Program-made: the position numbers and the translations under genes
Part shown: positions 29,660 through 30,576 of the stretch, piece after piece
Layout of the letters: each line of letters starts with the position of its first letter
How positions within the stretch are numbered: the first letter of the stretch is position 1
Origin: a virus
Strand: one strand, 5' to 3'
Length of the DNA: 42,338 bases
UHGV virus genome: UHGV-0127092
The notes under the pieces: generated by a model
Databases searched by the model: none
Seen by the model: only the letters and a program-made list of their open reading frames with translations
Told to the model about the DNA's origin: nothing

Positions 29660-30498
29660 GATGGAATTTCAGTCTGGCCATAGTCCTTGCCAGCGAAATT
29701 TTCGGCAACTCGCGTCTGTTGGCGTGGTTGAGGCTTGGAACCCTTTGGCTCAAACAAGCCTTGCCAGCCATTGGCGATGCTCTGGTTAATAATTTCGTCA
29801 GGGGTGTAGCCGTTCAGCCTGCAGCGGTCGAGCAACTTGATAGCTTGCGTCACGGTCTGCTGAGACTTGATCGGCTTTTTCAGGTCACGACGGTATGCCA
29901 CCCATGACGACCAGATTTCTGCAGAAAGCCAGTCAGGCAACTTAACAGCTGACGCATCGAACGAAACCGCCCGGGGGGATTTAGGGGGGTTATTAATATT
30001 GTCTTTATTGTCTTTTGTATGTTTGTCTTTTGTGTTTACCTGATTCGGGTAATAGGCGTTACCTGATTCGGGTAAACTTTTCTTACCTGATTCGGGTAAA
30101 TTTACCTCTTTCGGGTAAACATTATTTTTCTTACCTGATTCGGGTAATGTTTCCCATTCGCTGACCACATTATTAATACCGATATTCCGCCCGCTCTGAA
30201 TAAAAATCCCACGCTTTACCAGAACACTTTTTGCAGCTGAGCACTTATGCGGGAGAATTCCGGTCAGCTCCGAGATCTGCTCGTTACTGACCCAGTCAGA
30301 TTTCTTATTGAAGCCGTATGTTTTGCGCATGACGGCCATGAACACCAAAAGCTGATGCTGCGACAAACCTGCATGCATGACAGCCTCCAGTAATTCATTA
30401 GCGATGCGCGTAAACCCGTCGTCGAGATCTGCCACGCGCTGCTCCTTAGGTGCCACGTCAGGCACAGGGAAATTGATTACTTCGGCAGTGTTTGCCAT
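29644..30498 (-). CDS. Replication initiator protein, lambda O-like
   Basis: N-terminal DGFTRIANELLEA...LSQHQLLVFMAVMRKTYGF block as in lambda O; central LPESGKK peptide repeats encoded by the ori iterons. Confidence 0.8.
   Translation of the reverse strand: MANTAEVINFPVPDVAPKEQRVADLDDGFTRIANELLEAVMHAGLSQHQLLVFMAVMRKTYGFNKKSDWVSNEQISELTGILPHKCSAAKSVLVKRGIFIQSGRNIGINNVVSEWETLPESGKKNNVYPKEVNLPESGKKSLPESGNAYYPNQVNTKDKHTKDNKDNINNPPKSPRAVSFDASAVKLPDWLSAEIWSSWVAYRRDLKKPIKSQQTVTQAIKLLDRCRLNGYTPDEIINQSIANGWQGLFEPKGSKPQPRQQTRVAENFAGKDYGQTEIPSWARD
29985..30147. repeat. Origin of replication: five 17-bp iterons (TTACCTGATTCGGGTAA) plus adjacent AT-rich tract, inside the O gene
   Basis: Iterons at about 30036, 30059, 30083, 30102 (degenerate) and 30131, each with inverted arms TTACC/GGTAA; AT-rich TGTCTTT-repeat tract at about 29985-30035. 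Confidence 0.7.
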
Positions 30499-30576
30499 AA
30501 TTGCTCCTGTGAATTGATCCAGTTAATTCCACCTGAAAGCCGTTGGTGTTCCAGCACCGCGGCTTTTGTCCTTTTT
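30473..30576 (+). ncRNA. Candidate OOP-like antisense small RNA (promoter TTGATT-17-CATAAT plus intrinsic terminator)
   Basis: Plus-strand -35 at 30473-30478 and -10 at 30496-30501; hairpin GCCG/GGTG...CACC/CGGC then TTTTGTCCTTTTT at about 30539-30576, antisense to the cII-O junction. Confidence 0.35.

What the first reader, a model, noticed from the sequence alone, without database searches (positions are those of the whole stretch)
30473..30576. Candidate OOP-like antisense RNA at the cII-O junction
On the plus strand (antisense to cII and O) a TTGATT-17-CATAAT promoter overlaps the O start codon and is followed about 40-70 nt downstream by a hairpin and U-rich tract ending just before the cII stop. 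This parallels the lambda pO/OOP RNA that destabilises cII mRNA.
Basis: partly seen in the sequence, partly recalled or inferred. Interest (0 to 1): 0.4.

Follow-up and report, generated by a model that had tools for sequence, protein, structure and literature searches.

The report
OOP antisense RNA gene, short form
This is the prophage's copy of the well-known lambda/P22 "OOP" antisense RNA gene between cII and the replication gene O; it is expected in such phages, and differs mainly in lying wholly in the gap between the two genes.

Summary
On the + strand, TTGATT-17-(TG)cCATAAT (30473-30501) has its -10 over the O start codon. A weak 5' hairpin (30509-32), a strong terminator hairpin (30535-67) and a U-rich tract (to 30576) follow, ending 5 nt before the cII stop codon (30581-83).

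Motifs alone are not above chance: 2 promoter-terminator units in the window against 1.3±1.0 in shuffles. The support comes from other evidence:
- **Homology:** the promoter and first ~25 nt align base for base with lambda pO/oop and P22 oop.
- **Model search:** a covariance model built only from relatives finds the sequenced 63-nt P22 oop RNA end to end (34 bits, E~8e-6).
- **Conservation:** the terminator is conserved in about 100 distinct prophage contexts, with 6 compensatory pairs and 98.5% pairing.
- **Strand:** G·U pairs assign the structure to the OOP-sense strand.

Unlike lambda (52-nt overlap) and P22 (42 nt), the predicted ~60-65-nt RNA does not overlap the cII coding sequence. Here cII is a short 73-aa form.

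Verdict: a genuine but unannotated OOP homologue, a new member of a known kind. Transcription and any effect on cII were not tested. Interest is low to moderate.

The parts
30473..30478 (+). -35 hexamer TTGATT of the pO-like promoter. It lies inside O codons 7-9.
   Evidence: Lambda has TTGAGT at the equivalent place.
30493..30501 (+). Extended -10, TGcCATAAT. CAT 30496-98 is the complement of the O start codon.
   Evidence: A CAT[AT][AC]T hexamer over an ATG is present in 78 of 78 distinct OOP-sense contexts (a 79th, L082, has TAAAAT), across 16 different replication-gene N-termini. TGn is present in 10 of those 16 classes.
30504..30508 (-). Shine-Dalgarno AGGAG of O, read on the - strand. 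It sits immediately next to the predicted 5' end of the antisense RNA.
   Evidence: Sequence. Lambda and P22 have the same CTCCT.
30509..30572 (+). Predicted OOP-like RNA. The 5' end is placed at G30509 by register with lambda +1, and could be up to 30512 by register with the P22 read. The 3' end falls somewhere in 30567-30576. Length is about 59-67 nt.
   Evidence: Inference from alignments A1/A4, the P22 63-nt RNA (PMC13397905) and the folds. The ends were not measured.
30507..30522 (.). CTG-N10-CAG, an SOS-box-like sequence over the start site. It sits where lambda has CTG-N10-CAG.
   Evidence: Sequence. PMC5869508 cites a LexA site in lambda oop-pO. No binding matrix was applied, so this is a lead only.
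30509..30532 (+). 5'-terminal hairpin, weak at -4.4 kcal/mol.
   Evidence: A hairpin starting at or near +1 recurs in most of 50 distinct 5' segments although their sequences differ (mean z -2.1). RNAalifold did not recover it, because the alignment there is inconsistent.
30535..30567 (+). Terminator hairpin: 9-bp lower stem, 1-nt bulge, 5-bp upper stem, 4-nt loop.
   Evidence: Pairing is 98.5% across 53 distinct sequences. Six pairs show changes on both sides, no shuffle of 500 reached the observed values, and slid controls pair at 39-52%.
30564..30576 (+). U-rich tail UUUUGUCCUUUUU.
   Evidence: Most relatives have the weaker UUUCGCCCUUUCUG.
30581..30802 (-). cII-like gene of 73 aa. It lacks the C-terminal tail that the terminator encodes in lambda and P22.
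   Evidence: The same 222-nt CDS is annotated in Klebsiella phages and in E. coli 21AR0133.
29644..30498 (-). O-like replication initiator gene, with ori iterons at 30036-30151.

Best explanation
The interval is the oop gene of this lambdoid prophage.

1. A constitutive, weak-to-moderate sigma-70 promoter of the extended -10 type lies over the O start codon.
2. It fires against the pR operon and makes a roughly 60-65-nt untranslated RNA.
3. The RNA starts with a small 5' stem-loop and ends at an intrinsic terminator just short of cII.
4. The RNA is perfectly complementary to the cII-O intercistronic spacer of the pR transcript.
5. By analogy with lambda, the duplex is cut by RNase III. [quoted passage not shown] CII falls and the decision tilts toward lytic growth.
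6. Convergent pO transcription probably also damps pR read-through toward ori, as reported for lambda.

Shown here: the sequence elements, their homology to lambda and P22 oop, and conservation with covariation of the terminator on this strand.
Inferred: transcription, the RNA ends, RNase III cleavage, and the effect on CII, O and replication.
For: Elements and fold: (+ strand -23.8 kcal/mol, z -5.1; opposite strand -15.9, z -1.6).

Homology:
- Lambda pO has the same hexamer spacing, the same TG and the same ATG overlap.
- Window, P22 and lambda align over the -10 to about +25.
- blastn of the 93-nt segment hits the O/oop junction of HK022 and VT2-Sakai (E 4e-5) and of 933W and P22 (E 2e-3). 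One record, HK633, annotates the spot as 'similar to lambda oop mRNA'.
- Model R1 finds P22 oop at 34.3 bits with the hairpin kept through compensatory changes, and lambda at 18.8 bits.

Conservation:
- The segment sits next to at least 16 unrelated replication-gene N-termini and several different upstream genes (CII types and YdaT-family). Homology breakpoints fall at the -10/ATG and just after the terminator.
- It occurs in prophages of about 15 enterobacterial genera.

Covariation.

Strand assignment: 112 G·U cells make the hairpin 98.5% paired on the OOP-sense strand against 84.1% on the other. The OOP-sense hairpin is the more stable in 53 of 53 sequences.

Coding excluded: the 35-aa ORF across the spacer carries stop codons or shifts frame in most relatives.

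Literature:
- Lambda OOP mechanism, with both cleavage sites outside cII (PMC5869508).
- P22 oop sequenced at 63 nt (PMC13397905).
- OOP(BTP1) seen by RNA-seq (PMC7067206).
- pO-pR interference (PMC3985674).
Against: - No expression data exist for this element.
- Motif-level statistics are at chance.
- The -35 is only 4 of 6, and in many relatives 2-3 of 6.
- The U tract is interrupted (UUUUGU) and is weaker still in most relatives (UUUCGC), so termination efficiency is uncertain.
- The RNA does not overlap the cII coding sequence, so the cII-directed effect needs secondary 3' decay.
- In lambda, OOP contributes little to loss of CII after SOS induction (PMC2327240).
- The -10 and -35 overlap constrained positions (the start codon and conserved I/L-N codons of O), so part of their conservation may be due to coding.
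Confidence: 0.8

Rival explanations
1. The promoter matters and the RNA does not. Convergent pO-like transcription exists mainly to throttle pR read-through into ori and so tune replication initiation. The nearby terminator only keeps the antisense transcription from running into cII and cro. Any effect on cII mRNA is negligible, because there is no overlap with the coding sequence.
For: In lambda, pO activity lowers pR-driven transcription, and a pO- mutant replicates poorly (PMC3985674). Here the RNA covers only the 82-nt spacer. The module travels with many different upstream genes, including YdaT-family proteins. It always abuts a replication gene, and in this window the ori iterons lie about 350-460 bp from the promoter.
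Against: This is not exclusive of the antisense role. A conserved 5'-terminal hairpin suggests selection for RNA stability, which a mere by-product would not need. The lambda RNase III cuts are themselves outside cII (PMC5869508), so lack of coding overlap does not remove the antisense mechanism.
Confidence: 0.15
2. The conserved hairpin works in the sense (pR) mRNA as an intercistronic processing or 3'-stabilising element for cII or O. On this view the 'promoter' is just the A/T-rich spacer around the O start codon.
For: The opposite strand still forms a hairpin, at -14.2 kcal/mol for the hairpin segment. The whole spacer read in the cII-O mRNA sense folds at -15.9 kcal/mol. Motif statistics alone are at chance.
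Against: - Two G·U positions kept in 46-48 of 53 sequences become A·C mismatches on the sense strand.
- The sense-strand hairpin is the weaker one in 53 of 53 sequences.
- Sense-strand z is only -1.6, and the model scores the reverse strand at 14 bits against 100.
- A T-rich tail follows the stem only on the + strand.
- The -10 A2/T6 and the TGn are kept across non-homologous replication genes through second codons of the form NCA.
- The homologous P22 locus yields an antisense RNA with matching ends (PMC13397905).
Confidence: 0.04
3. The spacer encodes a small protein: the 35-aa ORF 30477..30584(-), which starts in an ATGA overlap with the cII stop codon. On this view the structure is incidental.
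For: The ORF is open in the window and reaches past the O start. In phages Lambda_4C10 and Turner the equivalent frame is fused to O in the annotation.
Against: In 31 of the 55 relatives that have the ATG, in-frame stops end the ORF before O. A loop variant gives TAA at codon 12. The frame relative to O differs between classes, and 10 relatives lack the ATG. There is no Pfam hit.
Confidence: 0.01

Closest known systems
Phage lambda OOP RNA and pO promoter (77 nt)
   Same: - It lies between cII and O, antisense to the pR operon.
- The promoter has the same architecture: TTGAnT-17-TGnCATAAT, with CAT as the complement of the O ATG.
- The start register is the same, 7 nt after the -10.
- The first ~25 nt are conserved, including CTG-N10-CAG.
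- A 5' stem-loop is followed by an intrinsic terminator.
   Different: - It is shorter, about 60-65 nt against 77 nt.
- The lambda terminator lies inside cII, giving a 52-nt overlap (PMC5869508) and encoding KKRPAATERS. Here the terminator lies in the spacer with 0-nt overlap, and cII is 73 aa rather than 97 aa.
- The terminator sequences are not alignable: model R1 matches only the 5' half of lambda oop, at 18.8 bits.
Phage P22 oop RNA (63 nt, sequenced; P22 14024-14086, minus strand)
   Same: - This is the closest match. The -10 to +20 region is nearly identical.
- The terminator has the same bipartite design: a lower stem of about 9 bp, a bulge, a 5-bp upper stem and a UUCC-type loop.
- The length is similar.
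- Model R1 aligns it end to end at 34.3 bits, E~8e-6 (PMC13397905).
   Different: - The P22 terminator encodes the last 13 residues of C1 (KEKPQDCGNSFEA) and overlaps c1 by 42 nt.
- The P22 -10 overlaps the start of ORF48 rather than the start of the replication gene.
OOP(BTP1) of Salmonella prophage BTP1
   Same: It is an RNA-seq-detected ncRNA at the position of lambda OOP in an enterobacterial lambdoid prophage (PMC7067206). This shows that OOP homologues are expressed outside lambda.
   Different: It is described as overlapping the 3' end of cII. Its sequence was not compared here.

Membership tests
OOP antisense RNA of lambdoid phages (lambda, P22, Stx phages, BTP1) | A promoter (pO) facing the pR operon, with its -10 over the start codon of the gene that follows cII. 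| tested here: met
   The feature is conserved in 78 of 78 related contexts.
OOP antisense RNA of lambdoid phages (lambda, P22, Stx phages, BTP1) | Sequence homology of the 5' part of the RNA to known oop genes. | tested here: met
   Alignments A1 and A4. blastn hits lambda-like and P22-like phages at this junction. The covariance model scores P22 at 34.3 bits and lambda at 18.8 bits.
OOP antisense RNA of lambdoid phages (lambda, P22, Stx phages, BTP1) | A short non-coding RNA with a 5' stem-loop and a Rho-independent terminator. | tested here: met
   In silico only. Folds are, terminator covariation, and the ORF is shown not to be conserved. The U tract is interrupted.
OOP antisense RNA of lambdoid phages (lambda, P22, Stx phages, BTP1) | [quoted passage not shown] | tested here: not met
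   The last T of the tail is at 30576 and the cII stop codon is at 30581-83. The overlap is 0 nt. The RNA is antisense to the cII-O spacer only.
OOP antisense RNA of lambdoid phages (lambda, P22, Stx phages, BTP1) | Complementarity to the cII-O intercistronic mRNA, the region where the lambda RNase III cuts are reported (outside cII). | tested here: met
   Complementarity follows from the cis-antisense position. The cleavage sites are known for lambda only (PMC5869508). Cleavage here is not testable with these tools.
OOP antisense RNA of lambdoid phages (lambda, P22, Stx phages, BTP1) | The RNA is actually made, and it lowers CII in an RNase III-dependent way. | not testable with these tools
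   No transcriptome or genetics is available for this element.
OOP antisense RNA of lambdoid phages (lambda, P22, Stx phages, BTP1) | A LexA operator in pO/oop, as reported for lambda. | tested here: inconclusive
   CTG-N10-CAG at 30507-30522 sits at the same place as in lambda, with 13 of 20 matches to the SOS-box consensus by my own count. No scoring matrix or binding data were used. Relatives with other 5' hairpins lack it.
Any Rfam family | A score at or above a family's gathering threshold. | tested here: not met
   There is no hit even at E<=10. Lambda and P22 oop themselves also hit nothing. Rfam 15 therefore has no OOP model, and this negative result is uninformative.

The most novel reading that the evidence does not exclude
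The short-form OOP is a self-contained, portable intergenic module. It has been freed from cII coding constraints and recombines between unrelated upstream regulators (CII types, YdaT-family) and unrelated replication genes. On this reading its main job is not cII control. It would act on the replication gene (translation start and ori activation), or in trans on host or rival-phage transcripts that carry the same conserved spacer. An example would be cross-talk or exclusion among co-resident lambdoid prophages.
Probability: 0.12. Interest if true: 0.5.

Novelty: new member of a known kind. Interest (0 to 1): 0.25.

Why it matters
- It adds an unannotated regulatory RNA gene to a prophage whose public annotation shows only an 82-nt gap.
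- In a widespread group of enterobacterial prophages, OOP lies entirely between the genes. This fits the lambda report that the RNase III cuts fall outside cII, and it gives a natural test of whether coding overlap matters.
- Rfam has no OOP family. The alignment and model made here (A2, R1) could seed one and improve phage annotation.
- Some records call the spacer coding by starting O at an upstream ATG.
- Beyond that, the finding is what one expects at a cII-O junction.

Tried and rejected
- **Rfam:** a gathering scan of the window and a permissive scan of 30300-30800 gave nothing at the site. This is uninformative, because lambda and P22 oop also give nothing.
- **Motif-only significance:** the test was not significant. 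I do not rely on it.
- **Truncated cII:** I considered that cII is a frameshifted pseudogene whose tail is the 35-aa ORF. The three-frame translation shows no continuous frame, the 73-aa form is the annotated norm in relatives, and the ORF is not conserved. Rejected.
- **5' hairpin covariation:** MAFFT alignment of this hairpin is out of register between sequence classes, so pair counts there would be meaningless. RNAalifold omits the hairpin. I used per-class folds instead. Support for this hairpin is therefore weaker than for the terminator.
- **Rightward terminator:** no T run follows the stem on the - strand, so the hairpin is not a terminator for rightward transcription.
- **Host identity:** The organism is therefore not established. 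One E. coli genome carries the cro-cII-O region (window 29600-31200) at 99.9% identity.

Full report
**Context.** The window carries a lambdoid immunity and replication region in inverted orientation.
- A cI-like S24 repressor lies at 31173-31940 (+).
- A cro-like HTH gene lies at 30843-31088 (-).
- A cII-like gene lies at 30581-30802 (-). It matches Pfam Phage_CII at E 8.6e-13 and is 52% identical to lambda CII over 50 residues.
- An O-like initiator lies at 29644-30498 (-). It matches Phage_rep_O at E 1.8e-34 and is 37% identical to lambda O.
- A DnaC/IstB-like loader lies at 28787-29659 (-).
- Five iterons, TTACCTGATTCGGGTAA, lie inside O at 30036-30151.

The + strand is therefore the 'leftward' strand of the phage, antisense to the pR operon.

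**Observation.**
- The promoter is TTGATT (30473-78), a 17-nt spacer, TG (30493-94) and CATAAT (30496-30501).
- CAT is the complement of the O start codon.
- Downstream lie a small hairpin (30509-32) and a strong hairpin (30535-67).
- The tail UUUUGUCCUUUUU ends at 30576, five bases before the cII stop codon (30581-83).
- The + strand RNA folds at -23.8 kcal/mol (z -5.1). The complementary strand folds at -15.9 kcal/mol (z -1.6).

The bare motif coincidence is not significant. The whole window holds two promoter-then-terminator units, this one and the isrJ gene. Dinucleotide shuffles give 1.3±1.0.

**Homology to known oop genes.**
- Lambda pO is TTGAGT-17-CATAAT, with the same TG and the same overlap with the O ATG.
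- The window aligns with lambda from the -35 through about +25 of OOP.
- Window, P22 and lambda share TTTGnCATAATnnCTCCTGTnnATnGATCCAGT.
- blastn of the 93-nt segment finds this junction in HK022, 933W and other Stx phages, P22-like phages and others. Record HK633 labels it 'similar to lambda oop mRNA'.
- P22 oop has been sequenced as a 63-nt RNA (PMC13397905). Folded, it has the same plan as the window's RNA: a 5' stem-loop and a bipartite terminator.
- I built covariance model R1 from 53 relatives, with lambda and P22 left out. It finds the P22 locus end to end at 34.3 bits (E~8e-6), keeping the hairpin through compensatory changes. It finds the 5' half of lambda oop at 18.8 bits (E~0.03).
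- In the window, R1 scores the opposite strand of the site at only 14 bits and nothing else above 10 bits.
- Rfam has no OOP family. Lambda and P22 oop hit nothing, so the empty Rfam result at the site carries no weight.

**Conservation and covariation.**
- I collected 80 viral contigs encoding relatives of this cII.
- I also collected 37 bacterial genome loci matching the terminator pattern. They come from Leclercia, Enterobacter, Klebsiella, Citrobacter, Kluyvera, Raoultella and other genera.
- All of these loci carry the element.
- It sits beside at least 16 unrelated replication-gene N-termini and several upstream gene types, including YdaT-family proteins.
- Homology breakpoints cluster at the -10/ATG, between the two hairpins, and just after the terminator.
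- Every one of 78 distinct OOP-sense contexts has CAT[AT][AC]T over an ATG. One more has TAAAAT.
- TGn is kept in 10 of 16 classes through second codons of the form NCA.
- The terminator hairpin is 98.5% paired over 53 distinct sequences. Six pairs change on both sides, none of 500 shuffles reaches the observed values, and slid controls pair at 39-52%.
- RNAalifold predicts the same helix independently.
- G·U pairs (112 cells) make the helix weaker on the other strand, 84.1% paired. The OOP-sense hairpin is the more stable in 53 of 53 sequences.
- The 5' hairpin differs in sequence between classes but recurs at or near +1 in most of them. This evidence is weaker. In the window the hairpin is only -4.4 kcal/mol.
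- The 35-aa ORF across the spacer is broken or frame-shifted in most relatives, so the region is non-coding.

**What differs from the textbook case.**
- Lambda OOP overlaps cII by 52 nt (PMC5869508), and its terminator encodes part of the CII tail.
- P22 oop overlaps c1 by 42 nt, and its terminator encodes KEKPQDCGNSFEA.
- Here cII is a 73-aa form that matches only positions 4-58 of the 91-position Pfam model. The terminator lies wholly in the 82-nt spacer, so the overlap with the cII coding sequence is zero.
- The PGAP annotation of a 99.9% identical E. coli region shows only an empty gap there.

**Mechanism, with shown and inferred steps.**
- Shown: the promoter, hairpin and terminator elements, their homology, and selection on the + strand structure.
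- Inferred: an RNA of about 60-65 nt from G30509 (by lambda register) to roughly 30567-30576.
- Inferred: it pairs with the cII-O spacer of the pR transcript, and RNase III cuts the duplex. The lambda cuts are reported to lie outside cII and to need secondary decay (PMC5869508), so coding overlap is not required.
- Inferred: cII mRNA is destabilised.
- Inferred: the duplex ends one base from the O Shine-Dalgarno (AGGAG, complement of 30504-08), so O translation may also be affected.
- Inferred: convergent pO firing may damp pR read-through toward ori, as in lambda (PMC3985674). This is the main rival or companion explanation.
- A CTG-N10-CAG at 30507-22 sits where lambda is said to bind LexA (PMC5869508). 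I could not test it. In lambda, OOP contributes little to CII loss after SOS induction (PMC2327240).

**Verdict.** This is a genuine oop homologue, closest to P22 oop, in a short intergenic form that is common in enterobacterial prophages. OOP homologues are already known from lambda, Stx phages, P22 and BTP1 (PMC12197685, PMC13397905, PMC7067206). It is therefore a new member of a known kind. Expression and function remain untested.

Noticed in passing
window 23516-23622 (-): A full-length Rfam isrJ (Hfq-binding sRNA) match lies at 23517-23590, at 65.1 bits against a gathering score of 37. It has its own promoter-like site (23622 to 23594) and terminator (23543-23516). It is the only other promoter-terminator unit in the window.
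   Followed up: partly
window 36409-36506 (-): A borderline Rfam isrB match, at 36.5 bits against a gathering score of 35, with a strong terminal hairpin.
   Followed up: no
window 29999-30151: An ori-like array lies inside the O ORF: five copies of the palindromic iteron TTACCTGATTCGGGTAA (30036-30151), next to a T-rich stretch (29999-30035). The iterons encode the repeated LPESGKK motif of the protein.
   Followed up: partly
window 31137-31173 (+): CTGACA-18-GATAAT ends 7 nt before the ATG of the cI-like gene. This suggests a pRM-like promoter giving a leaderless repressor mRNA, as in lambda.
   Followed up: no
window 30780-30812 (+): A pRE-like arrangement straddles the cII start codon: TTGC-N6-TTAA, then 17 nt, then GATAAT. 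It is conserved in relatives as TTGC-N6-TT[AG]A ... GATA[AC]T. Lambda has TTGC-N6-TTGC. The conservation may be partly due to coding.
   Followed up: partly
window 30507-30522: CTG-N10-CAG (CTGTGAATTGATCCAG) overlaps the predicted start site, at the same place as the reported LexA site in lambda pO/oop. Relatives with other 5' hairpins lack it.
   Followed up: partly
window 30477-30584 (-): A 35-aa ORF starts in an ATGA overlap with the cII stop codon and runs past the O start. It is not conserved in relatives.
   Followed up: yes
L085 and L086 (phages Lambda_4C10 and Turner), locus positions about 700-909: In these records the O-like CDS is annotated from an upstream ATG. The oop-homologous spacer, including an internal SD plus ATG under the -10, is therefore called coding, which is probably a start-site mis-call. 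The upstream gene there is a YdaT_toxin-family protein, not a CII.
   Followed up: partly
L125 (P22) 493-771 compared with window 30581-30595: P22 C1 and the window's cII both end in ...FEA-stop. In P22 these codons lie between the two OOP hairpins. In the window they lie beyond the terminator. This hints at a rearrangement that moved the terminator out of the gene. It is unexplained.
   Followed up: no
window 29600-31200: E. coli strain 21AR0133 (NZ_CM132251) carries this region at 99.9% identity. The cI-like region at 31945-33572 is 99.5% identical to phage mEpX1. The window is thus a mosaic lambdoid prophage, and the host species is not established.
   Followed up: partly
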